A DNA stretch of 55,471 bases from a virus (Duplodnaviria; Caudoviricetes), in the IMG/VR virus record IMGVR_UViG_3300045970_000148, positions 1-55,471 of that record. One strand, 5' to 3'. Positions 20,931 through 41,198 of this stretch are shown one piece after another. Made by a program: the position numbers and the translations under genes. The notes beneath the pieces are model-generated. The model did no database searches and was not told where the DNA came from. It was given only the letters and a program-made list of their open reading frames with translations. Position 1 is the stretch's first letter. Every line of letters starts with the position of its first letter.

Positions 20931-21042
20931 CGGAACGGAAACCCACAGTGTTGCTCGCGCTCGTCCGATAGCTACCCAGGTACACGCTCCACACACCAGC
21001 ATACGTATTGTTGTTCCAGTTGTACGACGAGATCGGCACCAT
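20931..21042 (-). repeat. DGR template repeat (TR)
   Basis: A-rich 112-nt copy of VR1/VR2 between avd and RT; 3' end diverges (GACTCT vs GCCTGT), as expected for IMH* vs IMH. Confidence 0.92.
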
Positions 21043-21062
21043 ATTGAGTTATTGCCCGTTTC

Positions 21063-21464: not shown

Positions 21465-21481
21465 CGGTCGCTATCGCTCTC

Positions 21482-27200: not shown

Positions 27201-30200
27201 TCCACGTCTGCATCGTTGAAAATGACGTAGTTGTAATTGCCTTCACCCTTGCCTCGGCTGGAGCCGTCCAGATATTTAATGCCACGGACGCCGAGAGAAT
27301 GGAGATATTCAGAAGCGGCCCGTTGTCTGTTTTGTTCTGAGTCATCCGCAGCAATTGACTTTGATATCAGGTTGTACGCTTGTTGGCCGTTTACATTGTT
27401 GCTTTGTGCATAATCGGCATAATCTCTACTCAACCTACTGGCTTTATGATAGTCAGTTTCGTTATTTACTATGTCGTCAAACGCTCGTTGAATAGACTCT
27501 TTCACGGTTTCACTCTGCTCATTCAGCGGCATGTCCCACAACAGATATTCATCTTCTTTTGGGTCGAGTTCAACTTGATAGAGTTTGCCTTTGGCTTCTT
27601 CTTCAGCCGGTTCCGGAGAACGTTCAAATCCTGTATCTTTTATTTTGTTTTGGAAACCTTCTTCGGCATATCTATAATCTTTGCCAACGGAATTAGCGTA
27701 AACGAGGTTGCTAAACTCAATTGCTGTTTCTCTGTCGTCTATCGACCTTGGAGCGTGTTCGTGGATGTTCCATTCAAATTCTTGCGCAAGTTCAGGGAAC
27801 TCTTTTTTAAACCTTGCATAATCTGCCTCTGCACGATCAGCAGAATCTTTGGCTATTTTCTGCCAGTTTTTATTCCGCCGCGCAAGCGTCTCCTTGTACC
27901 ACTCCGCAACATCCCGGCTACCTGCAAAGTAAAGACCATACCCGTAAGCCTGCGCCCCTTCACCCGTGCCGATATGCGCCGTACTAAACCCATTATGATC
28001 ATGCGGCGAACCATGCCAGGCAGCGGCAAACATCGCCTCATCACCACCCAAACCAACCGACAACCGCTTTTCCCCAATCCGCAACATCTCGGCCACGGCC
28101 AGTGAAAGCTCACTATCAGAGACATGCGAGATAAGCCCCTGCTGCCGTAACCAGTGCTTGATATACATGAACAGGCGCTGCATCAGGCCTGACGGTTTCC
28201 AATCGGCATTCACCGCCTGTTCTGCAATGGCGGCGGTTGCTTCCTGAACGGCACGGCGGTATTGCTTTTCATCGGTCAAATCATAACCGTACCGGTAGGC
28301 TATCCGCTCAAGCATCAGGTGCGCTTCTTTGGCTGCTTCTGTTTTGCCATTTACCGTACGCTTAAACCAGTCGACAGCCAGGTCAACTACCTTCTTGGTC
28401 TGTCCGGCGTGTGCCAGTTCGTGACCAATGACCAGTGCCTTGACGCGGTCCATATTGGGGATGTTATCTGTTATGACATGGATAGTCCCGCCATATTCCA
28501 TTGCCTGGACATGCGCGGGATTTACTTGTGCTAGTTCGATCTGATTGTATGCGGTGGAGTCTGCTGCTTTTAAATCATCGGGGGATTGCCAAACCTTGAC
28601 GCGCTTGGCAATTGGGAGGGAATCAACAAAGGTTTGAACTTCGGGAACATTTAAGGAACTTTTATTCCGGTCTTTTTCTCGTAAGCCGCTATCGCCCCAG
28701 GCATACAAAGCTTGATTTCCTGAAGCATTTGAGCGTGCTGCCCCGGAGTCATACTTGACCGTGACAGCGTTATTGTTGGCGTTGACGATTGCTTCGCTTT
28801 GTTCGTCGGTGTACTCTGGGATTTCATTATCTGACTCCTTTATTCTTGTTGCTGCCTCGGTATGCAACGAGTCCATAACAGCTTTATCACTGTTACTGTA
28901 TATTATCACATTTCTTGATTCCGGCAAATATAATGTAACGTAGTCACCGAACTTTATCTTTCGGTTTTTCGGCATATAATTTTTGTTAAACAGGTGCACC
29001 GAAGCGTCATGCACAAGCAGCGACTTTACAGTATAGGCATGGTCATTTAAAAACTTTGCCTCAGCATCATAGAATTTAGATGCAGCGCCATCTGATGAAT
29101 ATTCACCATTTGTCAGTTTGATTTTTCCAAGTATTTCCCCGAGACTTACCCAGTCATTATAAAATGTCCGTTTTGCCGTCAAGACATGCTTGCCAGCCTT
29201 ATCAAAAACCTGCATCTCGGTATAGCCGTGCTTGCCAGAAATAGATTTAACCGTATGGTCACTGTCTTTCATCAAACCGCTTACCTGGGCGATGTATTGA
29301 GGAATAAGTGTCTTATGGTCTACCTTCTTTATGGGCTCAATGCTTTCCCGGCCAGCATACGGATAATCGGTATGCATATCTCCGAGCGCAAAATTAGCGG
29401 GACCTTCTCCCGGTTTCACTTCATCCGCTGTCAACTCCGCCTGCAACTGCGATAACTCGGCAATCTTCTCATTGAACGCTGCTTCATGTTCAAACGGTGC
29501 GCCGATTCTCTTTATCAACTGCTTCAACTTCGTTTCATCCTCAGCAAGATTCGATTCTGTTCTTCGAAGCGAATCAGATACATCATTCAAACGGTTGAAG
29601 ATCCTCCGGGCCAAACCAGCCCCATCCGTGCCTTGCGGATACATCATCATATTGGTGTCAATTTCTGACGGCACATTATCAGTTATCTGAATGATATTGG
29701 AATACTGTGTTGTCACCGCTGACATAGCAACGGACGCGACTAACGGCATACCATTAATGCTGCCGTACTGCTGTGAATCAGTCCAAACCCCTTTATAACT
29801 ATTGTCAGGGAATTGGTTTTGAAGATCCAGTACCGCCTGATTATACGCAGCAACTACCGCTTCGCCAAACTCACCTGCCTTGTCAATCGTGCGCTTTTCG
29901 ACAACACCCTTGAAGCTACTACCGGAAACATAACCGCCAACAGCCTTTACCGCTTCTTTCAGCTTGGCAATGCTCTTCTGTTCATAGGATATATTCCATT
30001 CCGCTGTATTTTTATCGCCTCGCATCTGGCTTTGTTGCTGGAAGTGTGCTTCTTTCAAGCGGGAGTAGCGCTCGATATCGGCTTGCAAACCTACCAGCTT
30101 GATAACCCGCTCGTCACCAGACGACAAAGCCCGTGCCATTTCATACTGGCTGACTTCTGAAACATCTTCCATTGTGCGCAGATTATCGTCACCCATAAAG

Positions 30201-33200
30201 GCTTGCTCGATAAAGCGCCCTTTGCGGCCTACCATCTGCCACATGGTTGAATCATAACTCCCTTTGGTGGAATACCAATTAGCCTCAATCTCGGTATTCT
30301 GGTTCCCCTGGCGAATGATACGACCGTGAGCTTGTTCGACTGCGGACGGGTACCACGGTGGATCAATATAATGCAGAGCATAGAGACGGGTTTGCAGATT
30401 CTTTCCGACTCCCAGACTGTTGGCATGGCCGATGATGATCTTCTTGCGCCCTTCGCGCATATCCTTCATGACTGACAATTGCTTGGCACTGGTGTCATAT
30501 TCATCAAACCACGCCACTTCACCAGCAGGAATACCGGCAGCTTTCAAGCGCTGATTGATCCAAGCCCGAGCGTCAAAACCACGGCTCTTGGCGACATTGG
30601 CACCGAAACCATGATTATAAAAGACAACCTGCGTGCCGCCCTTGATTGCAGATGGTTTACCATCAACGCCGTTGTATTTGTTATCCTTCGTGTCTTTATA
30701 CACCCGGATAATTTCATCAATCACGCGGTTCAGCTTGCTATCAGGATCATTCTTGGTCGAACCGACCAGGCGCATATCAATAGACGACAAACGGCCATCG
30801 GTAATAATGTTGATAATCGGGTCAGGGTTTCCCGGTTGATCCGGTGTCGGCTTCCAGTCACGTGCCCGCTGCATACGTGGTTGCAGTACGTTTGTCTGAT
30901 ACGCTTTAAGTTCATCTGACGGCGTAGCGATAATCATATTCGGCTTGCCGCCCTTGATATCAGGGCGAACCACATACGCCCCCAGGTGGCTGGAAGTCAG
31001 TACATCCATAAAGGTACGAACACGCTTCATCAACTCCGGCAGGTTATTGAACTTGGCAAAGCGAGAAACCGGCTCATACTTGCCTGCTGCGTTCAACTCA
31101 TAATCCATTGCCGTCTGGCCGAACATCGCCGCCCAAGCATCAAAATGACCGATATCGTCACGCTCCATCTCTTCTTCCATAAAGAAACGCATGACGTTGT
31201 ACAGCTCGCCCATTGTATTTGTGACAGGTGTACCGGAAGCGAAGACATGACTACGGCCAGGTTTTTGATGCTCCATCCAGTTTGTTTTCAGAAACAGGTC
31301 GAGCGCGGTACGACTACCAACAGGGTCAATTCCCTTGACCTGCTGCACTGTGGTAAAATCCAGTTTACGGAACTTGTGCGCTTCATCAACAAACAAGAAG
31401 TCAACACCCAGTTCTTCATAGGTAATGATATTGTCGCCCTTGCCATCTTCAACAATGCTGTCAAAGCGCTGTTCGGCATTTTCAATCATCTTCTCCATCT
31501 TGGAAATAAGATGTCGGGGTGCATCATCGTCTTGTGCTTCCGTCAATGCTTCACGCATGGCGTTCAGCATCTTCTCTTTCACCGGGGCAACACTCTCCGG
31601 TTTCATGCGCAACTTACCAAGTGCTGATTGCGTAATGATGATAGCATCAGGGGCATTCATCGCCGCTTGCGCCATAAAGCGCTTACGGTTTTTCAGATCA
31701 AAGTTAAGTTCATCGGCCACCATAATGCTTGCCAGTGGGTACGCATCCATGAATTCAGCGGACCATTGCGACAGCTGGTCATTCGGCACGACATAGAGCG
31801 GCTTGTTAATCAGCCCCAGGCGTTTCATCTCCATACCGGCAGCAATCATCTCAAGCGTTTTACCTGCACCAACAGCATGTGCCAGATAGGTATTGCCGGT
31901 CTGGATCATGCGCCAGATTGCCCGCTTCTGGTGAGGGTGCAGCTTATACTTGGTAGCGATACCGGGAAGTGTCAGGTGACTGCCATCAAAACGACGGGGT
32001 GCAAGGTTGTTGTACTTCTTATTGTAGAGATCCAGCATCTCGCCAGCACGTTCAGCATCAGTCCAGATCCACGATCGGAACTCTGTACGCATATTGTCGG
32101 CAATTTCATTTACCCGTGCTGTCGCAGCAGGATCGGCTGATACTTTGCCGTCAAGATCTCTTACGGTAATACGAAGAGGTCGCTGATTCAGAACAGCATC
32201 AAGAATCTCATTAGCACCACGATCAGCCGTACCCCATTCAGCGGTTGAGCTACGCAACGACTGGACACCCTGCTTTTTACTGGAAGCACGGCGGCCATAT
32301 CCTTTGGCCGGGGCATTACCCATTGTTACCTTCCAGGTGTTTGTTGCCGCATGGCGCTCAACCTTTATATTCAGGTTCAGCACTTCTTGGGCGAACTCCC
32401 CGACAATATCAGTCGGCATCCACGCCATACCAAGACCAGCGGTAATCTGTCCCGGTGTAAGCGGTTTTGGCTGTACTTCGGTTAATGCCTTGACGTTTGC
32501 GCGAAACTTCTCATCACTCCGTGCCGCCTGTTCAGCTTCTGCCAGTTTAGTAACAACATCACCAGACAGATATTCATCCGCCAGCAGATGTTCACCGGAT
32601 GGCGTTTCATAGATCATATCGCCCAAGGCTTCAATCGCTTCCGTGCGAGACATCTTCATCAATCCGGCGATGTGATCCAGGTCAAGCATCCCGATTTCAT
32701 CAAGCGACAATGCCAATGCATCACCCATGCTCTGCGGATTGGTGGAACGCACCGGCTTCATGACGGTACGACCGGTCAGGAAGGAGGCTTTTGAAATATC
32801 GCCATCGTCGTTGATCTGCTCAAGCGCGAGAACAAGCGAACCCTCAACGTCGATGTTTGCTGTTTTTTCCCACTTATAATTGCGCGACTCTACTTTCTGT
32901 TCATTGCCATCTTCATCAAGCTCTGTTTTGACTTTCAGCGTAAAGTCTTTGATGTTGCCGTGCTTCTTCACAAAAGCGTCATACGCCTTATTCAGTTCCT
33001 TCAACGACTTTTCCCACCCTGCATCGTTGAACTGGTCAAAACGTGCCTGCTTCATCAGGTCACGTAAAGGAATATAATCGGTCAACCAGACTTGCTCTTT
33101 TGCTGATAGCTTCACCATGCTGGAGAGCGACACCCCGGAACCGTTTTCAACCCGCATGATTCCGCTCTTGTCAGACAGGTACACGCCCCCCTCTTTCTTA

Positions 33201-36200
33201 TTCTTGGGGCTAAAATCACGCTCTACGACAACCTGCTTGATCGTTTTCGGATCTTGTCGCATGGCACTGTAGACGTTGGCAGGCAGGTTTTGCACAGCAG
33301 CGGCAAAGAGCTGTTCAATATCGCCTTCCAGTGGTTTAACAGAATAATCATTCTGGCTGAATTGGCCTCGCTCGGTAACATGAGTACCCAACACCATCTC
33401 AGGATGAGCGGCAAAATACTCGTTGATCTGCTTGGTCTGGTCGCCTATCTGGATATCAGCGGTTTTGCCCCAGGCATGGCCACCCCCTTCGACTCCGCTC
33501 AGGGCAGGTGCTTCACCTTCGGCACGTTTGCGCAAAAAGATAACATCCGTAACAACTTCCGTGCCGCTGTGCTGCTTGAAAGCGGTTTGTGGTAGACGGA
33601 TTGCACCCAGTAGATCGGCACGCTCAGATAGATATGCCCGTGCCTTGTCGTCCAACTTATCCATAGTATAGCGACTGGTAACAAACGCCAGCAAACCACC
33701 GGGACGCACCTTGTCAATGGTCTTGGCAAAGAAGAAGTCATGCAGTGAAAACTTGTTTTTCTTGTAATCAGGGTCAGTCAGGATTGTTGTGGATGAAAAC
33801 GGCGGATTGCCGATTGCCACGTCAAAGAAATTGCCGGGGAACTTCTGCTTGGTGTAGTCACCATGGATAATATTCTGATTCGGATAGAGTTGTTGTGCTA
33901 TGGCAGCAGTAATGCCATCCATCTCAATACCGGTATACTTGGAATTGGCGTAGATACCATCAGGCATGGTGCCCATAAAGTTACCGGTACCGGGGCCAGG
34001 TTCAAACACCTTGCCACCAGCAAAGCCCATACGCTCAAAAGCTTTCCACATGGAGCGGGTAATAGCTTCACTGGTGTAGTGGGCATATTGACTGGAGCGT
34101 GCGGCGGTCTTTAATTCTTCGGGAGTAAGCGCAGTATCAAGGCGGTCAACCAGCGGCTTCCATGCTGCTTCTGCCCATTGTGGAATAATGCGCCCTTGTT
34201 CGGCATAGCCGGGGAATATCTTATTGCGGATTTCGCCAGAGCCCCAACCGACATACTTCATCAATAGAAGTTGTTCGTCAGGCGTGGCCATGCGATTTTC
34301 TTCGCGGAGGGTTTTAATCAGTTCAACAATATCAAGGTTACGGCTGGCACTATCCTTCCAGCTTCCGGTACGCTCTAAGCCGCCATTTGGGATTCGTAAA
34401 TCTCCGGTGGCATCGGATCGGAGAATTCCAGATAATCCGCTCGGGTCACTTCCCAGATCTCGCGTTGCGCTTGTTCCGTCTCCTGCACTTGCTGCATCGA
34501 ATCGTGGATCTTGCTGATTTTCGTTAATGCTTGATGAAACACTGACCGATACGACTCCTCCATCTCCACTGCGTACTCTTCCAGGAACGTCTGCAACGTC
34601 CCCGCTTTTGTCAGATCTTTGTGCATCTGAGGTGCCTGTTCCTTCATCGACAATGCTATCATCTGTTCCAGTTTTTTGCCGCTCGGAATTAACATCAGAC
34701 ACCTCCTCGTTTTCTTCTATTATAGCATAGTTATTGTTTTTTACATCATCCATAAAGCGCATGAGATAGGGTTTAATGGCGTTACCAAACTGCTTGGCAA
34801 TGAACTGAAAGAACTCGGTTAACTGCTTGCCGGATTCTTTGAAGTTATTGTATGCTGCCACAAAGTGAGGTTTGGCTTTGGCGTAGGTATGCTCGTCCAC
34901 GGCACCGGGGAAGTTCTTTAGCGAGCCACCACCAAAGATGTCATAGAGCCCTTTCAATGCTTCACCGGCACCCTTGACGCCAGAATCAGCGGCGGCTTTC
35001 AGAATATCGCTTGCGCCTCGGGTGTCTGTTGCAGGTGTGCCTGTTACCGCGTCTTGTCCGTATGCCCCTGAGACAATCGGGTCGTTACCGGTTCCGTAGA
35101 TTGTATCTACAAGATACTTCTTGCGGGTGTCGGTCAAGTGCCGCCATTTTGTCTTGGCCAAGAGATCAGTCTGGCCGCTCATATCCTGCGTAATCACTCT
35201 TCGGCCAACAAGAGTTAATTCGTTATCCCACCATGCTTCATAGTCTATGGTAGAGTTAATTGCCGGTTTCGCTGATCGTGCTGTCTGCTTGCTCCACAAA
35301 TCAAACAGTCCGGCATAACCGCCGATTTCCTTTATTGCTGATTCAAGATCCTCGGGAGATAATGCATAGTAATCCCACACATAAACTTCCAGATCTTTTT
35401 TGAATACATTATAATATTCATCTGTCCCTTGACCGTTGTTTATGAACTTGGTTGCCATACTCCATGCAGCATCAATAGCCTTACCGCGCTTTTCTTTTTC
35501 ATAAGGGGAATTATCTACAGATTTAACCGGAATGCTTTCAGCGACAACATCTACAACACTCTTCCCGGCCAGTGCAGTATTCAATTTATCCAGAAAATCA
35601 AACGGTGGCGAAAACTTATTCCCCGGTGCCGTGCCGCCGACACTGCGGTGATACCAATCGCCATCCACTTTGGTATAGATATAAGGATTGTTGTCAACCT
35701 GAACTTCGTTATCCGCCAGCTCGACCTTTTCAGGTGCAACCGCTTCGCCCTGCAAGCCTTCCACAAACTTCCGTCGTGCAGGAGTATCAGTCACATACCA
35801 AACACGCTTACGCATTGCCCACCGGAAACCTTCCGCCTTGATCTTGCTGATAACAGCATCAGACGGTTTTCCTTCAAAGCGCAATTCAATACCATTCTGC
35901 GCACTGTTGAATGAAACCTTCATCCCGGCAACCGGCTCTACCTTCGGCTTGGCCGCTTCAACCTTCTGCCGGTACTTATCCGCCTCATCTGGGTACTTTT
36001 CTGCCCAAGTATCAAACGCCGCCTGTTGTTCATCAGCAGTCTTGTCAAAAGCAGTTGCCGACTTTTCGTGACTGGCAATATTCTCTTTCTTCTTGGCACG
36101 TTCAGCTGCATTGCGTGAACTCTGTGCCTGTTTGCGGGAATACGCTACATTTCGCAGTAGTGCGTCTGGTTCGACCGCTACTTTATTATAAACCGGGGCA

Positions 36201-39200
36201 GGAACAACTGCCGGAGCGGGATCTGTTTCATGGTTCATGTGATCGAAAGAAGCATACCCTTTGACACCGTTATCCCACACAACATCATACGAATGAGAAT
36301 GACGCTGTGAAGCTTCGGATGAAGCGGACCCGTATGTAATCATGCGGCTGATAAATGTTTCAGCACGGGAAACTTCACCATGCTTACCGTCACTATCCTG
36401 AACACGATCCCCCTCTTTAAAGTAGGGTGCCGTCTGGTCATCTCTTTCCGGTTTTGTTGGATGGGAATCAATAGGAGGTGGTGTACTTTTCCGCTCTTCC
36501 TGCTTTGCCTTATGCTTCTGTAATGCTTTTTGAATGCGCGGTTTGTTCTCTGGCTTGGCCTTGGCTATAACCTGCTTCAAATACGCTTCGTGCTTCTTGG
36601 CTTTTGATAGCGAACGTGCCGGTTTTTCAGCAGCCGTTACATCATCAAACATCGCCGCCATTTCCTCAAGCGACAGGCTGTTAATTTCATCTTCAATGGT
36701 TTTGGTGGCAGTAGGTAGTTCCTCGGCCTTGATACGGGCCTTGCGTGGAGCATTGGTCTTTTTCGGTTTCTCCGCCTTGGCACCATCGACTAAACCAGCA
36801 GCATAGGCTTCATTGGCGGTTTCAGTATGTTGAGTCTGATCCAGCATAGGTTGACCGTGATCCTGCCATCCAGCATGGTAATTGGCGTAAAACATTTTAT
36901 CAAAGTCGTTGCGGTCCCAACTTGGGGCATCCCAGAGATCATACTTATTCAGCATTGCTTCATAAGCTTTTTGGCCAGCTTTGCCGCGTGGATGTTCTTT
37001 CTTGCCAGGCAGCGGGAGCCGTTCTACTGTTTTAACTGCGCCTGCCGTACCTTCGCTTGCAACATCACCTTTACTGACTGGAGAAACGCTTTCCGCTTCG
37101 CTGGTGGCATCTTCTTGCACTTGTCCTTGATCTTCTGTGCTGTTTCCTTGACTGAATTCTGTTGCATCCAGAACCTCCTTAAGATCGTTTTCAACCTCCT
37201 GCCAATCGGCGGCGGTCAGGGTTTCATTATCCAGTCCATCAAGATACTCATCCAGAATATCGCCAGCATCAGCCAGTTCTTGTACCTGTTCATCAAGCCA
37301 CTGGTTACGGCTGAACTCGTCGTACTCTTCATCGGTCATGGCGTTAATCATTTCCGAATAGCGAATCTCCGCTTCGCGGTATGCGTCGGTACCCGCTTCG
37401 GTCGAATGCGTCGAGCGGTGTACGGTACCGCGTTGTGCACTATCCAGCTTATCAAGCAGAGTGTTGATATCAGCAGACTCATCAAGATAGCCCTGTTCAA
37501 CCAATGCTTCTCGCATCCTGTCCAGCGGTATACCCTTGGAACTGATAACATGCAGAATCCCGGCCTTAGCTTCTTTTGTGGCCAGGCTATTCAGTGTGTG
37601 TGCCAGATCCTTGCCGGTACCGGTCTGCTTGTCGATCTCTGTACGACTGATACCGCCCAACTTGGCAATAGCTACAGCAATGCTGTCTTTGGAAGTATCC
37701 AGTTGACGGCGGGTGTTGGCCGGTTTTACTGGTGGCGGTGTTTTGCCGGTCTTGTTTTCGGGAGGAAGTCCACCAAGAAACTTGTCCAGCTCCTTTATAT
37801 ACTTACTGGTATCGTATTTCTCGCCTTGCGGGTTTGTGGCCTTTTCAATATTTGACCTTACTTCGCTTGCAGCTGCCAACAGTGCTTCACGCTCGGTGCC
37901 GTAACCTTTGTTATGGCCGCTCGGAGTCAGGGGCGGGTGTGGCCCACCGTGTCCTGAGTAAGCAGTATTGTAACCGGCGTTAGCGTAATACTCGCCGTCA
38001 GCAGCTTTACCTATCTTGAAATCAAAAAACGGTACAGCTTGAGGACGCTTCGGATCTGGTACGGTATAGCGCGTCTGTTCTGCCACCTGTTCTTCCATTT
38101 TCGGTGTTGTGTTTACTGCTTTACCAGATTCGGCGGCCTGGATCTCTGCATTGATCTCACTCAATCGCTGAGTGACTTCCGCTGGATACACCAAACCGCC
38201 GGTAATACCCTTGCCGCTGTTTTTTGTAAGCAGTTGTTCTTTCTCCTGCTTCAATGCGGTAACACGGTCTGTTACAGCCTGGCTCCGCACGCTGGACACT
38301 TCTTCTTGCGGCCCATTGTTTTTTTGCTGCACGCTGGACAAATCATTGCTTACACCTCCGGGTTGGATATTATCACTTCCGACTCCTGCCACTTGGCTTT
38401 GCACAGGGGGCACTGCCACTCGCTGCCCGTCCATTTCACTCGGCCCTTGGTTTGGCACTTCGGGCAATATACTTGTAATGCCATTGACCTTCTCCTGTGA
38501 CTTACGGAATTCAGAGACAATTCTTGATGCGTATGAAGCGGCACGCTCTCCGTGCAGTTGCATCAAATGGCCGTCTGATTGCTGGTTCTTCCATGCCATA
38601 GCCTTTTCAAGCTCACTTGGAGCTGATGGCAGAGAGGCGGCTTCCGGCTGTATCTCTGGGGCATTGGCAAAAGGTTGAGCTGCAAACGATGAATACATAT
38701 CCGCTGATATCGGTGGCAGATCAGGAAGAATGGAATTGACGGCGCGGGTCATTGCTCCTGCCGGTGGAGTTGCAGCTATACCAAGATCACGTCCCGAATC
38801 CACGGGCCAGCTTTCGGGTATAGAATCGGCGCCAACACCTGATGAATCTTGCAGTATGTTACCAGTGCGTACATTTGCTCCTGTGACAATTTCGGTAGCG
38901 GGTTGGTTTTGCTGATTGACGGCATTGGCTTCCTCCGTTGGTATTTGTGGCTGTTGGCCACGCTGCTCTAAATAATCACCGGCATGACTCAATACCTGCC
39001 CGCCACCACCCATTGCGGCACCGGCCAATCCGCCCAATGCTGCTGATTCGGCAACACGCTCGTCCCACGGCTTGCCAAGCGCAAGGTTCTGCATGACCTG
39101 TTCTTGTGCTGATTGAGGCAACTCTTCAAAGATGCCCTCCGACAACATCCCGCCAGTAATACCCTTGACCATGCCGACTTTACTTTGACCGGCCAGCTTA

Positions 39201-39889
39201 CCGCCAGCAATCATAGTATCGACATCGGCAATGCCCATCTTGCGGGCAAGACCACCGCCAGCAAGCCCAAAGGCGGCAGTACCAACACCGGACGCTGCAG
39301 CAAGTGCCGCCTGTTTCGGTGTAAGCAAACCTGTTGGTGTCTCTTGCCGGATCTGTTCAGCGGCAGAACCCGCACCAAAAACACCTTCGCCAGCTGCACC
39401 GGCAACAATAGGAGCGAATTCACCAGCTGCGGCCAGTGCCGCTTTTGGCGCTACTTTCATGATCCCACGAGCAACACCGCCAGCTCCTATCATGCCGGGA
39501 GCAGATTCAAGCACGGAATGAGCTATAGTTGATGGCCGTTGTACCGCTGCGGCAATGGTGGGAAAGAAACCTTCGGTATTAGCGACTTCACGATTCAACT
39601 GCTGTTGCTCAGGAGTGTAGAGCGTATCAATGATTGATTTTGCTTCTTTGGGTTTAAAGCCTGCTTTTTCTGCCAACTTTCCGGCATAACCGCCCGTTGC
39701 GATATCAGCAATACCAACTACTGCTTCCGGTACGGCTATGGCACCTTTTAACAGAGATAGTGCAGGATCAGCGACAACCCTGCGAAGGCGGCTTGGTGTG
39801 GGTGTTTCCACTTCACCATCGAGCTTACCGGTGAATGGAATTAAGGAGGGTGCAGCGTCGAGCGTTCCGTTAAACGGTTTCAGTTCCAT
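24266..39889 (-). CDS. Giant DarB-like polyvalent virion protein (~5207 aa): adenine methyltransferase, SNF2-type helicase, HExxH peptidase-like and ADP-ribosyltransferase-like domains
   Basis: FEPGPGTG and NPPF (~33800-34005); HAVGAGKT (~31870); DEAH (~31380); GHELAH (~28420); WHGS...QAYGYGLY (~27930-28015); likely start MELKPF at 39889, just after the upstream stop. Confidence 0.88.
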   Translation of the reverse strand: MELKPFNGTLDAAPSLIPFTGKLDGEVETPTPSRLRRVVADPALSLLKGAIAVPEAVVGIADIATGGYAGKLAEKAGFKPKEAKSIIDTLYTPEQQQLNREVANTEGFFPTIAAAVQRPSTIAHSVLESAPGMIGAGGVARGIMKVAPKAALAAAGEFAPIVAGAAGEGVFGAGSAAEQIRQETPTGLLTPKQAALAAASGVGTAAFGLAGGGLARKMGIADVDTMIAGGKLAGQSKVGMVKGITGGMLSEGIFEELPQSAQEQVMQNLALGKPWDERVAESAALGGLAGAAMGGGGQVLSHAGDYLEQRGQQPQIPTEEANAVNQQNQPATEIVTGANVRTGNILQDSSGVGADSIPESWPVDSGRDLGIAATPPAGAMTRAVNSILPDLPPISADMYSSFAAQPFANAPEIQPEAASLPSAPSELEKAMAWKNQQSDGHLMQLHGERAASYASRIVSEFRKSQEKVNGITSILPEVPNQGPSEMDGQRVAVPPVQSQVAGVGSDNIQPGGVSNDLSSVQQKNNGPQEEVSSVRSQAVTDRVTALKQEKEQLLTKNSGKGITGGLVYPAEVTQRLSEINAEIQAAESGKAVNTTPKMEEQVAEQTRYTVPDPKRPQAVPFFDFKIGKAADGEYYANAGYNTAYSGHGGPHPPLTPSGHNKGYGTEREALLAAASEVRSNIEKATNPQGEKYDTSKYIKELDKFLGGLPPENKTGKTPPPVKPANTRRQLDTSKDSIAVAIAKLGGISRTEIDKQTGTGKDLAHTLNSLATKEAKAGILHVISSKGIPLDRMREALVEQGYLDESADINTLLDKLDSAQRGTVHRSTHSTEAGTDAYREAEIRYSEMINAMTDEEYDEFSRNQWLDEQVQELADAGDILDEYLDGLDNETLTAADWQEVENDLKEVLDATEFSQGNSTEDQGQVQEDATSEAESVSPVSKGDVASEGTAGAVKTVERLPLPGKKEHPRGKAGQKAYEAMLNKYDLWDAPSWDRNDFDKMFYANYHAGWQDHGQPMLDQTQHTETANEAYAAGLVDGAKAEKPKKTNAPRKARIKAEELPTATKTIEDEINSLSLEEMAAMFDDVTAAEKPARSLSKAKKHEAYLKQVIAKAKPENKPRIQKALQKHKAKQEERKSTPPPIDSHPTKPERDDQTAPYFKEGDRVQDSDGKHGEVSRAETFISRMITYGSASSEASQRHSHSYDVVWDNGVKGYASFDHMNHETDPAPAVVPAPVYNKVAVEPDALLRNVAYSRKQAQSSRNAAERAKKKENIASHEKSATAFDKTADEQQAAFDTWAEKYPDEADKYRQKVEAAKPKVEPVAGMKVSFNSAQNGIELRFEGKPSDAVISKIKAEGFRWAMRKRVWYVTDTPARRKFVEGLQGEAVAPEKVELADNEVQVDNNPYIYTKVDGDWYHRSVGGTAPGNKFSPPFDFLDKLNTALAGKSVVDVVAESIPVKSVDNSPYEKEKRGKAIDAAWSMATKFINNGQGTDEYYNVFKKDLEVYVWDYYALSPEDLESAIKEIGGYAGLFDLWSKQTARSAKPAINSTIDYEAWWDNELTLVGRRVITQDMSGQTDLLAKTKWRHLTDTRKKYLVDTIYGTGNDPIVSGAYGQDAVTGTPATDTRGASDILKAAADSGVKGAGEALKGLYDIFGGGSLKNFPGAVDEHTYAKAKPHFVAAYNNFKESGKQLTEFFQFIAKQFGNAIKPYLMRFMDDVKNNNYAIIEENEEVSDVNSERQKTGTDDSIVDEGTGTSDAQRSDKSGDVADVPGRVRSGDGGVVSVSVSSSINENQQDPRFDAASAGDGTSATRDLGSDPSGLSGILRSDATGDLRIPNGGLERTGSWKDSASRNLDIVELIKTLREENRMATPDEQLLLMKYVGWGSGEIRNKIFPGYAEQGRIIPQWAEAAWKPLVDRLDTALTPEELKTAARSSQYAHYTSEAITRSMWKAFERMGFAGGKVFEPGPGTGNFMGTMPDGIYANSKYTGIEMDGITAAIAQQLYPNQNIIHGDYTKQKFPGNFFDVAIGNPPFSSTTILTDPDYKKNKFSLHDFFFAKTIDKVRPGGLLAFVTSRYTMDKLDDKARAYLSERADLLGAIRLPQTAFKQHSGTEVVTDVIFLRKRAEGEAPALSGVEGGGHAWGKTADIQIGDQTKQINEYFAAHPEMVLGTHVTERGQFSQNDYSVKPLEGDIEQLFAAAVQNLPANVYSAMRQDPKTIKQVVVERDFSPKNKKEGGVYLSDKSGIMRVENGSGVSLSSMVKLSAKEQVWLTDYIPLRDLMKQARFDQFNDAGWEKSLKELNKAYDAFVKKHGNIKDFTLKVKTELDEDGNEQKVESRNYKWEKTANIDVEGSLVLALEQINDDGDISKASFLTGRTVMKPVRSTNPQSMGDALALSLDEIGMLDLDHIAGLMKMSRTEAIEALGDMIYETPSGEHLLADEYLSGDVVTKLAEAEQAARSDEKFRANVKALTEVQPKPLTPGQITAGLGMAWMPTDIVGEFAQEVLNLNIKVERHAATNTWKVTMGNAPAKGYGRRASSKKQGVQSLRSSTAEWGTADRGANEILDAVLNQRPLRITVRDLDGKVSADPAATARVNEIADNMRTEFRSWIWTDAERAGEMLDLYNKKYNNLAPRRFDGSHLTLPGIATKYKLHPHQKRAIWRMIQTGNTYLAHAVGAGKTLEMIAAGMEMKRLGLINKPLYVVPNDQLSQWSAEFMDAYPLASIMVADELNFDLKNRKRFMAQAAMNAPDAIIITQSALGKLRMKPESVAPVKEKMLNAMREALTEAQDDDAPRHLISKMEKMIENAEQRFDSIVEDGKGDNIITYEELGVDFLFVDEAHKFRKLDFTTVQQVKGIDPVGSRTALDLFLKTNWMEHQKPGRSHVFASGTPVTNTMGELYNVMRFFMEEEMERDDIGHFDAWAAMFGQTAMDYELNAAGKYEPVSRFAKFNNLPELMKRVRTFMDVLTSSHLGAYVVRPDIKGGKPNMIIATPSDELKAYQTNVLQPRMQRARDWKPTPDQPGNPDPIINIITDGRLSSIDMRLVGSTKNDPDSKLNRVIDEIIRVYKDTKDNKYNGVDGKPSAIKGGTQVVFYNHGFGANVAKSRGFDARAWINQRLKAAGIPAGEVAWFDEYDTSAKQLSVMKDMREGRKKIIIGHANSLGVGKNLQTRLYALHYIDPPWYPSAVEQAHGRIIRQGNQNTEIEANWYSTKGSYDSTMWQMVGRKGRFIEQAFMGDDNLRTMEDVSEVSQYEMARALSSGDERVIKLVGLQADIERYSRLKEAHFQQQSQMRGDKNTAEWNISYEQKSIAKLKEAVKAVGGYVSGSSFKGVVEKRTIDKAGEFGEAVVAAYNQAVLDLQNQFPDNSYKGVWTDSQQYGSINGMPLVASVAMSAVTTQYSNIIQITDNVPSEIDTNMMMYPQGTDGAGLARRIFNRLNDVSDSLRRTESNLAEDETKLKQLIKRIGAPFEHEAAFNEKIAELSQLQAELTADEVKPGEGPANFALGDMHTDYPYAGRESIEPIKKVDHKTLIPQYIAQVSGLMKDSDHTVKSISGKHGYTEMQVFDKAGKHVLTAKRTFYNDWVSLGEILGKIKLTNGEYSSDGAASKFYDAEAKFLNDHAYTVKSLLVHDASVHLFNKNYMPKNRKIKFGDYVTLYLPESRNVIIYSNSDKAVMDSLHTEAATRIKESDNEIPEYTDEQSEAIVNANNNAVTVKYDSGAARSNASGNQALYAWGDSGLREKDRNKSSLNVPEVQTFVDSLPIAKRVKVWQSPDDLKAADSTAYNQIELAQVNPAHVQAMEYGGTIHVITDNIPNMDRVKALVIGHELAHAGQTKKVVDLAVDWFKRTVNGKTEAAKEAHLMLERIAYRYGYDLTDEKQYRRAVQEATAAIAEQAVNADWKPSGLMQRLFMYIKHWLRQQGLISHVSDSELSLAVAEMLRIGEKRLSVGLGGDEAMFAAAWHGSPHDHNGFSTAHIGTGEGAQAYGYGLYFAGSRDVAEWYKETLARRNKNWQKIAKDSADRAEADYARFKKEFPELAQEFEWNIHEHAPRSIDDRETAIEFSNLVYANSVGKDYRYAEEGFQNKIKDTGFERSPEPAEEEAKGKLYQVELDPKEDEYLLWDMPLNEQSETVKESIQRAFDDIVNNETDYHKASRLSRDYADYAQSNNVNGQQAYNLISKSIAADDSEQNRQRAASEYLHSLGVRGIKYLDGSSRGKGEGNYNYVIFNDADVEITAKFSLQDQAISQHAAKINAPAKVTDMVKSLIELAGQSIPERLKANIGKILSNPWFGSEGKPIRRHVVNLNLERSQNRNGIISDLFQASEGYTGVEGLDNILKKASKEELKQFNDLIKHGDENGVATYFTRDELYRGKTKFGKVGKTVVEAYRAFHEVMNAANRVRFQQLDELSMLPYKDQEWFADLVELLNKNMERAAHLDAKEASEVHRLIRSLKRNLTDDELASGENPAKIKASPAVIAAYRDFWKQVDQTEKKHQGNMLSAFRDILGYRGELDKLKSEWGNLRGYAPRNRKDGDWHVSVYTTNEEGERVKVYMKPTLTETGAKGLVREVQADLKKHLKGNFEAGTKYEVEYERNNATPSELLAWKGSEVAVEALLNQAFDRAGVTGKMSVEQWQSLKHEVFQEIAKEIMAQGFGRHGISRETTLIEGYDDADYQTVLKEYISGMSGWLSKMRFAIETTSAAKDISKANPSDKVWVNDYVQDAMKNSTYLDELAATARSVGAVYYLGFKVSSALLNAFQNYTVGQAELSLIMKKAGHKGSAIAALATAQKDVLKDSVDRKRGGVGTLTKEEYDVLFRAVREGTAQAQAIRQISGTQEMGFGTKWKWFVEKSMTPFQLVEQKLNREPAILAAYRIFKKSAAGTIDEAAYKKAEEFVNNTHYVMGKENLPEMVRKLGPLGKTAYLFQGYVHNYMHWMFNRAKDGEFATIARSLGAIAALGGVFALPGADDMDNWIMKWFGVSYKMKFKKFVKDAAGNSTPGQIIQNFVNHGVTSVVGVDMSRALAVNIPFISDPEKTFGERIGGAWGGLLKKPGMALNALQKGDGLRAIENIVPEFLANPMRAARQYNQGATTLGGKPVFDETGRQVKYSGTDVAKKMLGFNPLEISDRTNLKSDERDLNAYWKSERDDALAGIRRAKNSEDMKAAVRGVVKYNTELRKSQAFGLVPIIKAESIQKSRTFKPQKKTMAWERNQIE
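34375..34695 (-). CDS. Nested +1-frame gene, 106 aa, TnpV-like helical protein
   Basis: GAGGAGGtgtctg-ATG; KEQAPQMHKDLTKAGTLQTFLEE resembles TnpV by eye; host frame is a D/S/G-rich linker. Confidence 0.65.
   Translation of the reverse strand: MLIPSGKKLEQMIALSMKEQAPQMHKDLTKAGTLQTFLEEYAVEMEESYRSVFHQALTKISKIHDSMQQVQETEQAQREIWEVTRADYLEFSDPMPPEIYESQMAA
37024..37167 (-). CDS. Nested +1-frame gene, 47-aa basic protein
   Basis: AAGGAGGttctgg-ATG; MQQNSVKETAQKIKDKCKKMPPAKRKAFLQSVKVMLQAKVRQAQLKQ. Confidence 0.55.
   Translation of the reverse strand: MQQNSVKETAQKIKDKCKKMPPAKRKAFLQSVKVMLQAKVRQAQLKQ
38272..38346 (-). CDS. Nested +1-frame gene, 24-aa zinc ribbon
   Basis: GGAGGTGtaagca-ATG; MICPACSKKTMGRKKKCPACGARL. 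Confidence 0.6.
   Translation of the reverse strand: MICPACSKKTMGRKKKCPACGARL
38350..38484 (-). CDS. Nested +1-frame gene, 44-aa zinc ribbon
   Basis: AGGAGaaggtca-ATG; MALQVYCPKCQTKGRVKWTGSEWQCPLCKAKW... Confidence 0.6.
   Translation of the reverse strand: MALQVYCPKCQTKGRVKWTGSEWQCPLCKAKWQESEVIISNPEV
38776..38925 (-). CDS. Nested +1-frame gene, 49 aa
   Basis: GGAGGaagcca-ATG; MPSISKTNPLPKLSQEQMYALVTYCKIHQVLAPILYPKAGPWIRDVILV. Confidence 0.45.
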   Translation of the reverse strand: MPSISKTNPLPKLSQEQMYALVTYCKIHQVLAPILYPKAGPWIRDVILV

Positions 39890-39890
39890 A

Positions 39891-41198
39891 TCATTTCCCC
39901 GTAAATCTATTACCGCTGGCATCCTGATAAACATCCTTACCGCCTGACGTACCAACATAGGTCATGCCAGAAGGCGCTTTATATGAAACGAATTTACCGG
40001 CTACAGCGGGTTTCTCGGGAGTGCCGAAACCAAGTATCCCGGTCGATGCTTGTGCTGGTGTCCCCGGCATAAACTGTTTCCCTGTGAGAATGTCCTGAGT
40101 GTCTTGCGCAATGCGCCCCGCATGATCCTTGGCTTCCGCCTCTGGCTTGCCCGCCGTAATAGCCGCGTCATAGGCTTTCGTGTACGCCTCTGATGTAATT
40201 TTTTTCTGGTTCTGTATGATTTCGTCCATCTTGGCGGCATGATTTGCTGCGGCCTGCTCTTCTTTGCTCTGAATACCAGCGGTGGTTTTTGTGTAGTTCT
40301 TTTCGTGTGCTTTATTCAGATCTATTTGAGACTTTTGCAGATCTACTTTCATGGCATTTAACGGCGTTGTTATATCTTCTGATAATGTCTTGCCCAATGT
40401 TGACGCGAGTATGTTCTGATTGGCAGTTTCGGCACTGGCATCAATCTGATATTTATGTATCGGGAGGTTTAGCGCCGTTGGTATCGCAGAGCCCGCCACA
40501 TTAATAATAGAATTTGTGCGTGCGTTTTGTTGATTTGCTTCGCGGCGAGACTGAGCCTCATCCATCATTTGATCCCTGCTATCACCGAAAAACTTACTGG
40601 GTGTGCGGTTTGCTTTAGCAACGGGCATAGCGGAAAGCTGTTTTATATAATCGTTTAAACCTAACCCTTCTTGTAATTGTGGCCGCTGCGGGTTTTGCAG
40701 CTTATCCATGCTTGCGCGGTTAAACTCCTGGATTCGGAGAGGATCGTTATAAACAGCGGCGTTGTCGCTTGATCCACCGCTATTTTTGGCAATGCCTTTT
40801 TGAAGGTCGGGCATATCGATTTTAGGAAGTGCCGTATTTAGCGGAGTAGTATTACTGATATCTGAAATAGGCTTTAGCTCATTTGCTTCGGCGGGCAATT
40901 CGGGTGCCATAGGTACGACGGCATTCTTTTTTTGAGGAACACTGATAGTTGGTTTACCGGCCTTGCCATTGGCATAGTCAGACAATTCACCAGCTACCTG
41001 TTGAGTCCTACCGTTGACCATCGCCATTGGATCACCAGTATCGCTGAACATGGCACGGCCAGTCTCAAGAATCTTCCCGCCCAAAGAAGCAGCTGCCGGA
41101 ACAAGCCCCAGAGACACAACGCTTGATATCGGTGCCTGTTTCGCTACACCTGAAAAGGTCGTTTCATACTTCGGTTTATAAGCACCAAGGAGCGCCAT
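39891..41198 (-). CDS. Probable internal virion (ejection) protein
   Basis: Q/A/K-rich helical protein before the giant gene; GGAGG SD. Confidence 0.55.
   Translation of the reverse strand: MALLGAYKPKYETTFSGVAKQAPISSVVSLGLVPAAASLGGKILETGRAMFSDTGDPMAMVNGRTQQVAGELSDYANGKAGKPTISVPQKKNAVVPMAPELPAEANELKPISDISNTTPLNTALPKIDMPDLQKGIAKNSGGSSDNAAVYNDPLRIQEFNRASMDKLQNPQRPQLQEGLGLNDYIKQLSAMPVAKANRTPSKFFGDSRDQMMDEAQSRREANQQNARTNSIINVAGSAIPTALNLPIHKYQIDASAETANQNILASTLGKTLSEDITTPLNAMKVDLQKSQIDLNKAHEKNYTKTTAGIQSKEEQAAANHAAKMDEIIQNQKKITSEAYTKAYDAAITAGKPEAEAKDHAGRIAQDTQDILTGKQFMPGTPAQASTGILGFGTPEKPAVAGKFVSYKAPSGMTYVGTSGGKDVYQDASGNRFTGK

What the first reader, a model, noticed from the sequence alone, without database searches (positions are those of the whole stretch)
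34375..38925. Hidden set of small genes overprinted in one +1 frame inside the giant DarB-like gene
Seen: five ORFs (38776-38925, 38350-38484, 38272-38346, 37024-37167, 34375-34695) lie inside the ~5200-aa ORF on the same strand, all in the same +1 frame. Each has an AGGAG/GGAGG site 6-7 nt before its ATG. They sit where the host frame is low-complexity linker, not in the MTase, helicase or ART cores, and their products look protein-like (two zinc ribbons, a basic helical peptide, a TnpV-like protein). Inference: these linkers are shadows of real genes, so the locus is dual-coding and could supply partners, inhibitors or chaperones of the injected enzymes. I do not know of a description of this for DarB-like or polyvalent genes. 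Caveat: Glu codons and NAT-G junctions create GGAGG and +1 ATGs by chance.
Basis: partly seen in the sequence, partly recalled or inferred. Interest (0 to 1): 0.85.

Follow-up and report, generated by a model that had tools for sequence, protein, structure and literature searches.

The report
Small genes nested inside giant phage gene
A 5230-residue phage gene carries five small genes in a second reading frame, and one of them belongs to a known protein family (TnpV) that sits nested the same way in many phages, plasmids and bacterial genomes.

Summary
The five ORFs lie in one +1 frame of the 5230-aa gene (24266-39958, minus strand). Each has AGGAG/GGAGG 6-8 nt before its ATG.

- **Chance:** the gene has 7 such SD-led +1 ORFs, against a mean of 0.6-1.0 in synonymous shuffles. 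None of 3 x 1000 shuffles reached 7.
- **Conservation:** all five are kept, with SD, start and stop, in the only two independent relatives found.
- **Selection:** pN/pS is 0.05-0.41 in the +1 frame and at least 0.86 in the giant frame. Third-position periodicity switches to +1 inside them.
- **ORF E (106 aa):** it is a TnpV-family (PF14198) protein. A homologue lies in +1 within about 700 nt upstream of the methylase module (one at about 1.7 kb) in 57 of 74 related viral records. It is also nested in +1 in two Firmicutes plasmids and in 13 of 50 sampled bacterial TnpV loci, never in +2.
- **Giant frame:** it avoids stops across these ORFs, 0 seen against about 63 expected, so both frames are kept.

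Translation and function are not shown. I found no description in print.

The parts
24266..39958 (-). Host gene: a 5230-aa polyvalent (DarB-like) virion protein gene with methylase and SNF2/ResIII helicase modules.
   Evidence: It is the longest ORF of the window. Pfam gives Eco57I methylase at 28.3 bits (cut-off 25.3) over aa 2041-2113. ResIII scores 28.3 bits and SNF2-rel_dom 26.2 bits, both above their cut-offs. It lies in the head/tail module of a tailed phage, with terminase, portal and major head protein nearby.
38776..38936 (-). Nested gene A: SD GGAGG 38936-38932, ATG 38925, stop at 38778-38776; 49 aa; +1 frame; no known family.
   Evidence: Sequence. It is kept at 92% aa identity with SD, start and stop in L002 and L079. 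pN/pS is 0.17-0.41 in +1 and at least 1.66 in the giant frame; W-L002 had no synonymous change in the giant frame. Variable sites by +1 codon position are 5, 2, 10. Pfam, PHROGs, NCBIfam and the Atlas give no hit.
38350..38496 (-). Nested gene B: SD AGGAG 38496-38492, ATG 38484, TAA 38352-38350; 44 aa; CPKC...CPLC zinc-ribbon-like; +1 frame.
   Evidence: All four Cys are kept in L002 and L079, some through changes that are synonymous in +1. Against L002, +1 identity is 39 of 45 and giant-frame identity 27 of 44. pN/pS is 0.05-0.37 in +1 and 1.26-4.97 in the giant frame. Zinc-ribbon Pfam hits are all below cut-off. phrog_4875 scores E 4.5e-5. The AF2 model has pLDDT 69.
38272..38359 (-). Nested gene C: SD GGAGG 38359-38355, ATG 38346, stop 38274-38272; 24 aa; CPAC...CPAC zinc-ribbon-like; starts 3 nt after B's stop.
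   Evidence: It is kept in L002 and L079 with all four Cys. In L079 it lies about 600 nt from B and has its own AAGGAGG SD. pN/pS is 0.20-0.33 in +1 and 1.04-2.61 in the giant frame. Pfam zinc-ribbon hits are below cut-off.
37024..37179 (-). Nested gene D: SD AGGAGG 37179-37174, ATG 37167, stop 37026-37024; 47 aa; Lys/Arg-rich; +1 frame.
   Evidence: It is kept at 59% aa identity in L002 and 89% in L079, with SD and start. pN/pS is 0.27-0.38 in +1 and 0.86-2.28 in the giant frame. No family hit.
34375..34706 (-). Nested gene E: SD GGAGG 34706-34702, ATG 34695, TAG 34377-34375; 106 aa; divergent TnpV-family protein; ends just before the methylase module.
   Evidence: It is 94% identical in L002. 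It is homologous to the L003 +1 ORF, which scores 49.8 bits on Pfam TnpV against a cut-off of 27. A homologue is found in 57 of 74 related viral records, 56 of them in +1 of a spanning ORF of at least 1000 aa. The AF2 model has pLDDT 85 and pTM 0.69 and is all-helical. There are 0 giant-frame stops against 1.9 expected after shuffling.
28651..28827 (-). SD-led +1 ORF F (58 aa): status open, possibly chance.
   Evidence: AGGAG lies 7 nt before the ATG. It has no match in L002 or L003, no conserved alt-frame match and no PHROG hit.
25351..25473 (-). SD-led +1 ORF G (40 aa): status open, possibly chance.
   Evidence: AGGAG lies 4 nt before the ATG. No relative covers this part of the gene, and there is no PHROG hit.

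Best explanation
The giant virion-protein gene is truly dual-coding. Five small genes (A-E) lie wholly inside it in the +1 frame. Each has its own Shine-Dalgarno site, ATG and stop. I infer that each is translated by internal initiation on the giant gene's mRNA.

In these stretches the amino-acid sequence under selection is the +1 one. The giant frame there is a poorly conserved, low-complexity spacer, and selection keeps it only free of stop codons so that the polyprotein stays in one piece.

E is a TnpV-family protein. That family also exists as free-standing genes, so the small gene is older than the spacer. The giant gene most likely arose, or grew, by reading across pre-existing small genes in the one alternative frame that is easy to keep open.

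The TnpV nesting is not a quirk of this phage. It recurs in a large family of phage polyvalent genes, in Firmicutes plasmids, and in about a quarter of the sampled TnpV loci of one bacterial class. It is always in +1.

What is shown: the ORF anatomy, the excess over chance, conservation, frame-specific purifying selection, stop avoidance in the giant frame, family membership of E, and a confident fold for E.

What is inferred: independent translation, and expression together with the giant gene (no excess of internal promoter-like sites).

What is guessed, at about 0.3: the small proteins act in the producing cell as helpers or regulators of the modules they are nested beside, and nesting keeps helper and module together when modules are shuffled.
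For: **Excess over chance**
- There are 7 SD-led +1 ORFs against 0.6-1.0 expected. None of 1000 synonymous shuffles reached 7 in each of three series.
- All 8 SD+ATG pairs of the gene are in +1.
- The other 15 long ORFs of the window have 1 SD-led ORF among 41 +1 ORFs.

**Conservation**
- A-E are kept in L002. A-D are kept in L079; E's region is not covered there.
- C moves with its own SD in L079.

**Selection by frame**
- pN/pS in +1 is 0.05-0.41 in 13 of 13 comparisons. In the giant frame it is at least 0.86 in the 12 of 13 where it could be computed; A W-L002 had no synonymous change in that frame. Pooled over B+C+D, dN/dS is 0.07-0.24 against 1.4-2.5.
- Variable sites by +1 codon position are 39, 23, 69 (chi-square p 3.8e-6). 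Flanking domains show giant-frame periodicity: 14, 12, 55; 5, 1, 37; 3, 6, 21.
- Of W's other +1 ORFs, one of 32 compared is likewise better conserved in +1 than in the giant frame, at 100% identity.

**E and the TnpV family**
- The L003 homologue passes Pfam TnpV at 49.8 bits. Of 45 family members, 12 pass at E <= 0.001 on their own.
- The family profile retrieves 37 proteins, 32 of them PF14198.
- Giant-frame homology between W and L003 starts only at aa 1853, whereas the +1 homology spans E.
- 57 of 74 records have the homologue. 56 are in +1 of a spanning ORF of at least 1000 aa. Of 52 unique ORFs, 49 have an SD core 4-10 nt before the start.
- Identity of the nested protein tracks that of the adjacent methylase: Spearman 0.47, with 0 of 999 permutations reaching it.

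**Both frames kept**
- 46 nested TnpV ORFs have 0 giant-frame stops against 62.7 expected. The third frame has 325 against 309 expected.

**Generality**
- TnpV is nested in +1 of the 'SNF2-related protein' genes of a Listeria seeligeri plasmid and a Clostridium botulinum plasmid.
- It is nested in three MAG contigs, one of which NCBI itself names TnpV protein.
- It is nested in 13 of 50 sampled PF14198 loci, with none in +2.
- Across 75 giant genes, 463 of 5551 +1 matches score more than 1.5x the giant frame. In +2 the figure is 1 of 5831.

**Fold**
- E folds with pLDDT 85.
Against: - No expression or translation data could be obtained.
- A-D rest on only three independent sequences, so the pairwise comparisons are not independent. 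A lies in a block that is 95% identical at the nucleotide level to L002, which leaves little power.
- E itself scores only 15.5 bits on Pfam TnpV, below the cut-off of 27. Membership rests on transitive homology.
- B, C and D pass no family threshold. The profile search with B found no clear free-standing relative.
- In one search I picked the SD-bearing start where there were several, which flatters the count of 49 of 52.
- F and G have SD+ATG but no support from conservation. About 0.6-1 such ORF is expected by chance, so not every SD-led +1 ORF need be a gene.
- The function of TnpV is unknown and there is no fold match in the PDB. The 'helper of the neighbouring module' idea has no direct support.
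- Free-standing TnpV genes are not followed by giant genes in 26 of 26 cases looked at.
Confidence: 0.87

Rival explanations
1. Chance ORFs. Glu-rich, low-complexity coding sequence throws up GGAGG and out-of-frame ATGs, and the +1 frame is simply poor in stops.
For: A 106-aa +1 ORF is not unusual: 57-79% of shuffles reach it. 47 of the 54 +1 ORFs of at least 20 aa have no SD. F and G show no conservation.
Against: None of 1000 shuffles reaches 7 SD-led ORFs. All five are kept in relatives with +1-specific purifying selection and +1 periodicity. Relatives of E pass Pfam TnpV.
Confidence: 0.02
2. Frameshift artefact or compensated frameshifts. The +1 segments would be the true in-frame domains of the giant protein, and the 'linkers' a wrong reading caused by sequencing errors or paired indels.
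For: The +1 reading is the conserved one and the giant-frame reading is not. In L046 the upstream part of the giant gene really is in frame with the TnpV ORF.
Against: Each +1 ORF is closed by a stop 1-26 codons before its ATG and ends at its own stop. The same boundaries recur in independent assemblies: 3 for A-D, 56 for E. The giant frame shows active stop avoidance, 0 against 62.7 expected. Free-standing TnpV proteins of the same length exist.
Confidence: 0.03
3. Programmed +1 ribosomal frameshifting. Ribosomes on the giant frame would slip into the small ORFs, with the SD-like site as stimulator, and make truncated fusion proteins rather than free small proteins.
For: SD-like sites can stimulate frameshifting (recalled: prfB, dnaX). 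L046 encodes exactly such a fusion in its DNA.
Against: All 52 unique TnpV-like ORFs have a start codon (45 ATG, 5 GTG, 2 TTG), 49 of them at initiation-type spacing from an SD core. The +1 frame is closed by stops just upstream: 7 codons for E, 1 for C, and TAA inside the SD region of the Listeria copy. I looked for no slippery motif, so none is shown.
Confidence: 0.06
4. For E only: a relic of a TnpV-carrying mobile element that inserted into the methylase-helicase gene. Such elements do target snf2 genes of streptococcal ICEs.
For: Passages of PMC9815147 report elements inserted in snf2 that carry a TnpV gene. TnpV also occurs free-standing on mobile elements.
Against: The giant ORF is unbroken. 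No recombinase or relaxase lies beside E. The nested gene sits at the same place in 57 records and co-diverges with the adjacent methylase (r 0.47, 0 of 999 permutations). That pattern fits vertical descent, not repeated insertion.
Confidence: 0.04

Closest known systems
Phage lambda Rz/Rz1 (spanin genes; recalled, not tested here)
   Same: A small gene lies wholly embedded in the +1 frame of a larger phage gene on the same strand. It has its own ribosome-binding site and start, and both products are made.
   Different: Here the host is a 5230-aa multi-enzyme polyprotein and carries five nested genes. They sit in spacer regions between domains. At least one (E) is older than the host-frame sequence that covers it. 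No functional pairing is known.
TnpV of Tn4451 and Pfam family PF14198
   Same: E belongs to this family by profile and transitive homology. It has a similar length and is all-helical.
   Different: E alone is below the Pfam cut-off. TnpV was described as a free-standing transposon gene, postulated to act in excision by likeness to lambda Xis (passage in PMC3158075). Here it is nested in +1 of a methylase-helicase gene. I found no paper that mentions this arrangement.
Polyvalent proteins of phages and conjugative elements, e.g. P1 DarB (Iyer et al. 2017, PMC5512222)
   Same: The host gene fits. It is a giant multi-domain protein with methylase and SNF2-type helicase modules, encoded among virion genes. 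The Firmicutes hosts carry LPD25, DUF6908 and MutS_I domains.
   Different: In that paper's main text 'TnpV', 'overlap', 'frameshift' and 'linker' occur 0 times (find mode). Its supplements could not be seen. Dual coding of the spacers is not part of the published picture.
Phage Mu com/mom (recalled, not tested)
   Same: A small Cys4 zinc-finger protein gene overlaps a DNA-modification gene and controls its translation. This is a possible model for B and C.
   Different: The overlap there is only partial. No RNA target is known here.
Long overlapping genes reported in bacteria (e.g. PMC8850804; search listing and abstract only)
   Same: They are embedded ORFs argued from purifying selection in an alternative frame.
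   Different: Those are antisense, young and taxonomically narrow. The TnpV nesting here is same-strand, old and spread across phyla and element types.

Membership tests
Embedded (nested) overlapping protein-coding gene | An ORF lies wholly inside another gene's ORF in a different frame. | tested here: met
   A-E are all at offset +1 within 24266-39958.
Embedded (nested) overlapping protein-coding gene | It has its own translation-initiation signals. | tested here: met
   AGGAG/GGAGG lies 6-8 nt before each ATG. These sites are kept in relatives. This is sequence evidence only.
Embedded (nested) overlapping protein-coding gene | There is purifying selection on the embedded frame. | tested here: met
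   pN/pS is 0.05-0.41 in +1 and at least 0.86 in the host frame. Periodicity is in the +1 frame, with controls.
Embedded (nested) overlapping protein-coding gene | The host frame is also maintained. | tested here: met
   There are 0 host-frame stops against 62.7 expected in 46 nested TnpV ORFs. The third frame is not depleted.
Embedded (nested) overlapping protein-coding gene | The embedded product is made (translation shown). | not testable with these tools
No Ribo-seq or proteomics data were available.
TnpV (Pfam PF14198), for E | The score reaches the Pfam gathering cut-off of 27 bits. | tested here: not met
   E scores 15.5 bits, E 0.017.
TnpV (Pfam PF14198), for E | There is homology to members that pass the cut-off. 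| tested here: met
   E matches the L003 ORF by tblastn at E 1.6e-7, and that ORF scores 49.8 bits. Of 45 aligned members, 12 match TnpV at E <= 0.001. The family profile retrieves 32 PF14198 proteins among 37 hits.
Zinc ribbon, for B and C | Two CxxC pairs at ribbon spacing, kept in relatives. | tested here: met
   B has CPKC-14-CPLC and C has CPAC-10-CPAC. All Cys are kept in three genomes while the residues between them vary.
Zinc ribbon, for B and C | The sequence passes a curated family threshold. | tested here: not met
   All Pfam and NCBIfam zinc-ribbon hits are below cut-off. The AF2 model of B has only pLDDT 69.
DarB-like / polyvalent protein, for the host gene | An N6-adenine methylase module plus an SNF2/ResIII helicase module in one giant polypeptide of a mobile element. 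| tested here: met
   Eco57I scores 28.3 bits (cut-off 25.3), ResIII 28.3 (22.5) and SNF2-rel_dom 26.2 (24.9). The phage context is shown.
   No ART family appeared among the Pfam hits at E up to 1. No structure-based test was run.

The most novel reading that the evidence does not exclude
Giant polyvalent genes of phages, plasmids and ICEs may be systematically dual-coding. On this reading their 'disordered linkers' are read-throughs of older small genes. TnpV would be the most ancient nested gene, fixed in +1 across phyla. The nested proteins would be working partners of the injected enzyme modules that stay in the producer cell, as regulators, chaperones or antidotes. Nesting would lock each partner to its module during domain shuffling. 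If so, a hidden layer of small proteins has been missed in a whole class of anti-defence loci.
Probability: 0.3. Interest if true: 0.9.

Novelty: new variant of a known kind. Interest (0 to 1): 0.82.

Why it matters
- **Scale of the overlap.** Same-strand nested genes are textbook rarities in phages. Here one gene holds five, and one of them belongs to a named Pfam family that is nested in the same frame in phages, plasmids and many bacterial genomes.
- **Missed genes.** Of the 5.8 billion predicted proteins searched, only about 5 of the 37 hits look like the phage-type nested form. The plasmid gene table shows only the big gene, though that table is stated to be incomplete.
- **Meaning of the linkers.** The result gives a concrete reason for the long, non-conserved linkers of polyvalent proteins.
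- **TnpV.** It gives a new handle on TnpV, whose function is unknown.
- **A practical test.** NAT-G to NAC-G start knock-outs are silent in the host frame, so each nested gene can be removed without touching the giant protein.
- **Annotation.** Overlap-forbidding gene callers can hide conserved genes.

Tried and rejected
**Searches that found nothing**
- Megablast of 33000-40000 against phages and plasmids found no match. A blastn 'distant' search against E. coli genomes found no match.
- tblastn of E and of the L003 TnpV against GenBank phages found no match.
- The alignment of three E homologues as a locus query returned only the two contigs already known.
- A- and D-based scans of viral contigs returned only the L002 contig. 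A-D therefore rest on three genomes.
- The genome-contig scan gave only 3 loci.

**Function and fold**
- The Foldseek search of the E model against the PDB gave a best E of 1.0, so the fold gives no functional lead.
- The profile search with B over 1.84 billion representatives gave 8 hits, mostly long multi-repeat Cys-rich proteins, and no clear free-standing relative.
- Atlas searches with D and A gave nothing usable.
- The hhalign comparison of the L010-group nested ORF with the TnpV-like alignment gave probability 4.4%, which is inconclusive.
- The promoter and terminator scan of 34000-40300 gave counts at shuffle level: 7 against 6.2, and 9 against 7.3. There is no sign of separate transcription units.
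- Pfam on the first ~900 aa of 10 of the 13 spanning ORFs from the bacterial survey found MutS_I in 2, Eco57I below cut-off in 1, and nothing in 7. Their polyvalent nature is therefore shown only for some.
- Complex prediction of E with the adjacent methylase module gave no verdict. It is not used as evidence either way.

**Script errors that I corrected**
- Two control blocks were mis-registered. One came from a one-codon offset and the other from gaps. They were redone.
- mis-oriented some minus-strand loci. It was redone.

**Rejected readings:** chance ORFs, a frameshift artefact, and a relic of an inserted element (see the rival explanations).

**Literature searches**
- 'TnpV'.
- 'polyvalent protein' + 'overlapping gene'.
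- Polyvalent proteins, bacteriophages, conjugative elements.
- 'DarB' + 'embedded gene'.
- Overlapping genes, bacteriophage, purifying selection and related terms.
- 'TnpV' + 'SNF2'.
- Nested gene, overprinting and related terms.
- None describes this arrangement.
- Supplements of papers were closed. Those of PMC5512222 may list domain architectures that bear on it.

Full report
**Setting.** The window is one nearly complete viral record of 55,471 bp (96% complete by CheckV). It belongs to a tailed phage: terminase, portal, major head protein and head-closure protein lie at 44.6-55 kb. The longest ORF, 24266..39958 on the minus strand, encodes 5230 aa. Pfam finds an Eco57I-type methylase at aa 2041-2113 and ResIII/SNF2 helicase domains further on, all above their cut-offs. 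This is a DarB-like 'polyvalent' protein gene lying among virion genes.

**The observation.**
- Reading the sequence gives GGAGG or AGGAG 6, 7, 8, 6 and 6 nt before the ATGs of A (38925), B (38484), C (38346), D (37167) and E (34695).
- C begins 3 nt after B's stop.
- Two more SD-led +1 ORFs exist: 28827..28651 and 25473..25351.

**Is it more than chance?**
- I shuffled synonymous codons among positions of the same amino acid, over the whole gene and within blocks of 200 or 60 codons, 1000 times each. SD-led +1 ORFs of at least 24 aa averaged 0.61, 0.60 and 0.99. The gene has 7, and no shuffle reached 7.
- The gene holds only 27 SD motifs, and all 8 SD+ATG pairs fall in +1.
- The other 15 long ORFs of the window have 1 SD-led ORF among 41 +1 ORFs.
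- ORF length itself is unremarkable.

**Relatives of A-D.**
- A scan of viral contigs with a neighbouring piece of the giant protein gave L002 (54-94% aa identity in blocks) and L003 (about 30%).
- A metagenome scan with B gave L079 and L080, which are identical where they overlap and so count once.
- A-D are present in +1 in both L002 and L079, each with SD, ATG and stop. E is present in L002; L079 does not reach it.
- In L079 a 600-nt insert separates B from C, and C has its own AAGGAGG.
- Against L002, B is 39 of 45 identical in +1 but 27 of 44 in the giant frame. All eight Cys of B and C are kept, while the residues between them change.

**Selection by frame.**
- Nei-Gojobori counts give pN/pS of 0.05-0.41 in +1 for all 13 ORF-pair comparisons. 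The giant frame gives 0.86-4.97 where it can be computed.
- Pooled over B+C+D, dN/dS is 0.07-0.24 in +1 against 1.4-2.5 in the giant frame.
- Variable sites fall 39, 23, 69 on +1 codon positions 1, 2, 3 (p 3.8e-6).
- In flanking domain blocks they pile up on the giant frame's third position: 14, 12, 55; 5, 1, 37; 3, 6, 21.
- Among all alternative-frame ORFs of W with a match elsewhere, A, B, D and E score better in +1 than in the giant frame at real divergence. One other +1 ORF (32613..32485, ratio 1.14) and a few +2 ORFs also exceed 1.1, but at 94-100% identity, where the ratio says little. The remaining +1 ORFs give ratios of 0.4-1.05.

**E is a TnpV gene.**
- E alone is sub-threshold on Pfam TnpV at 15.5 bits.
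- Its homologue in L003 lies in +1 of that locus's giant ORF, has GGAGG 8 nt before its ATG, and scores 49.8 bits against a cut-off of 27.
- The giant-frame proteins of W and L003 become alignable only at W aa 1853, nine residues before E's stop. The +1 homology covers E.
- With the methylase N-terminus as query, 73 further viral loci were fetched. Nearly all have a giant ORF running more than 1000 aa upstream of the methylase.
- An iterated profile of E found a homologue in 57 of 74 records. In 56 it is in +1 of a spanning ORF of at least 1000 aa.
- Its stop lies within 200 nt of the methylase match in 38 records, 500-700 nt upstream in 18, and about 1.7 kb upstream in one (L035).
- Of 52 unique proteins, 49 have an SD core 4-10 nt before the start. 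Where several starts were possible I chose the SD-bearing one.
- Twelve of 45 aligned members match Pfam TnpV at E <= 0.001 on their own.
- The family profile pulls out 37 database proteins, 32 of them PF14198.
- E folds confidently with this alignment (pLDDT 85, pTM 0.69, five helices). It has no PDB fold match.
- Pairwise identity of the nested protein tracks that of the adjacent methylase: Spearman 0.47, with 0 of 999 permutations reaching it.

**Both frames are kept.** Across 46 nested TnpV ORFs the giant frame has 0 stops. Shuffling synonymous codons within each ORF gives 62.7. The third frame has 325 against 309 expected. The giant frame is therefore under selection to stay open, and only that. 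This is what a translated spacer predicts.

**Beyond this phage family.**
- A 'free-standing' TnpV from the database (P0012, named TnpV protein by NCBI) was run by tblastn against plasmids.
  - It matched under the annotated 'SNF2-related protein' genes of a Listeria seeligeri plasmid and a Clostridium botulinum plasmid.
  - In both, the match is at offset +1, about 240 aa into the gene.
  - The Listeria copy has AAGGGAG 7 nt before its ATG.
- P0012's own contig shows the same thing: TnpV at 2980-3366 lies in +1 of a 2264-aa ResIII/SNF2-helicase ORF. Two more MAG contigs do as well.
- In 300 genomes scored (of 301 drawn) from that bacterium's class, 105 have a PF14198 match.
  - Of the 30 best-scoring loci, 4 are nested in +1 and 26 are free.
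  - Of 20 further matches picked down the list, 9 are nested and 11 are free.
  - That makes 13 of 50 nested, with none in +2.
  - The free ones are not followed by a giant gene.
- TnpV is thus an independent small protein family that is often nested.

**Other nested families.**
- Across 75 giant genes, 463 of 5551 +1 matches score more than 1.5x the giant frame over the same bases. In +2 the figure is 1 of 5831, which serves as a built-in control.
- Besides TnpV, the clusters include:
  - a ~65-aa family in 21 loci;
  - a ~98-aa SD-led ORF at the TnpV position in 10 loci that lack a detectable TnpV (relation to TnpV inconclusive);
  - a ~55-aa SD-led family in 5 loci;
  - several smaller clusters.

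**How it most likely works.**
- Shown: the anatomy, the excess over chance, conservation, frame-specific selection, and maintenance of both frames.
- Inferred: ribosomes start at the internal SD sites on the giant gene's late mRNA. Promoter-like sites are at shuffle level.
- Origin: free TnpV genes exist and the covering giant-frame sequence is not conserved. The spacer is therefore the newcomer, and the giant gene reads across older small genes.
- Why +1: the exclusive use of +1 fits the stop counts. After shuffling there are about 1.4 stops per ORF in that frame and about 7 in the other.
- Function is unknown. TnpV was postulated to act in excision by likeness to lambda Xis (passage in PMC3158075). 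B and C look like Cys4 ribbons, and D is a basic peptide. My working guess is that they are helpers or regulators of neighbouring modules, at about 0.3.

**Novelty.**
- Nested +1 genes are known in phages (Rz1 in Rz, recalled).
- I found nothing in print on nested genes in polyvalent or DarB-like genes, or on TnpV nested in SNF2/methylase genes.
- The main text of the 2017 polyvalent-protein paper does not contain 'TnpV', 'overlap' or 'frameshift'.
- One paper reports TnpV-carrying elements inserted in snf2 genes of Streptococcus suis ICEs (passages). That may be the same arrangement read differently.
- NCBI does name at least some nested copies. The proteins are therefore not unknown; the nesting is what goes unremarked.

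**Limits.**
- A-D rest on three genomes.
- F and G are unsupported.
- E's family membership is transitive.
- Paper supplements were not visible.

Noticed in passing
window 19778-23452 (repeats at 20928-21042 and 21496-21610): This looks like a diversity-generating retroelement. A reverse transcriptase gene (PHROG E 6e-101) lies beside a 115-nt repeat, and the second copy (83% identical) sits at the 3' end of the 656-aa tail-protein ORF. Of 19 mismatches, 14 are at adenines of the RT-proximal copy.
   Followed up: partly
I found no conservation or family support, and about one such ORF is expected by chance.
   Followed up: partly
window 49311-50249: Among the other 15 long ORFs of the window, this is the only one that holds an SD-led +1 ORF of at least 24 aa.
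   Followed up: no
window 36827-37855 (+ strand): A 342-aa ORF lies antisense to the giant gene. I did not examine it, and it may be a chance open frame.
   Followed up: no
L046 7083-7101: In this one relative the frame switches just before the TnpV start. The N-terminal 2100 aa of the 'giant' protein then run in frame into TnpV and end at its stop, and the methylase-helicase part is a separate overlapping ORF. This could be a natural split or a sequencing error.
   Followed up: partly
L044 13594-13800; L010 7699-7995; L037 4232-4396; L030 7684-7953; L067 6436-6696 and their clusters: Related giant genes hold further +1 ORF families that are better conserved than the giant frame over the same bases (21, 10, 5, 3 and 2 loci). 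Several have SD+ATG, and none has a Pfam match.
   Followed up: partly
L079 4605-5200: A 600-nt insert encoding a giant-frame module lies exactly between nested genes B and C. This hints that the small genes mark module junctions.
   Followed up: no
L079 659-1036: Upstream of the giant gene there is a tandem array with a period of about 96 nt, at 84-90% identity (self-BLAST).
   Followed up: no
literature: PMC9815147: Elements inserted site-specifically in the snf2 genes of Streptococcus suis ICEs are reported to carry a TnpV gene. It is worth checking whether that TnpV is a nested copy belonging to snf2.
   Followed up: no
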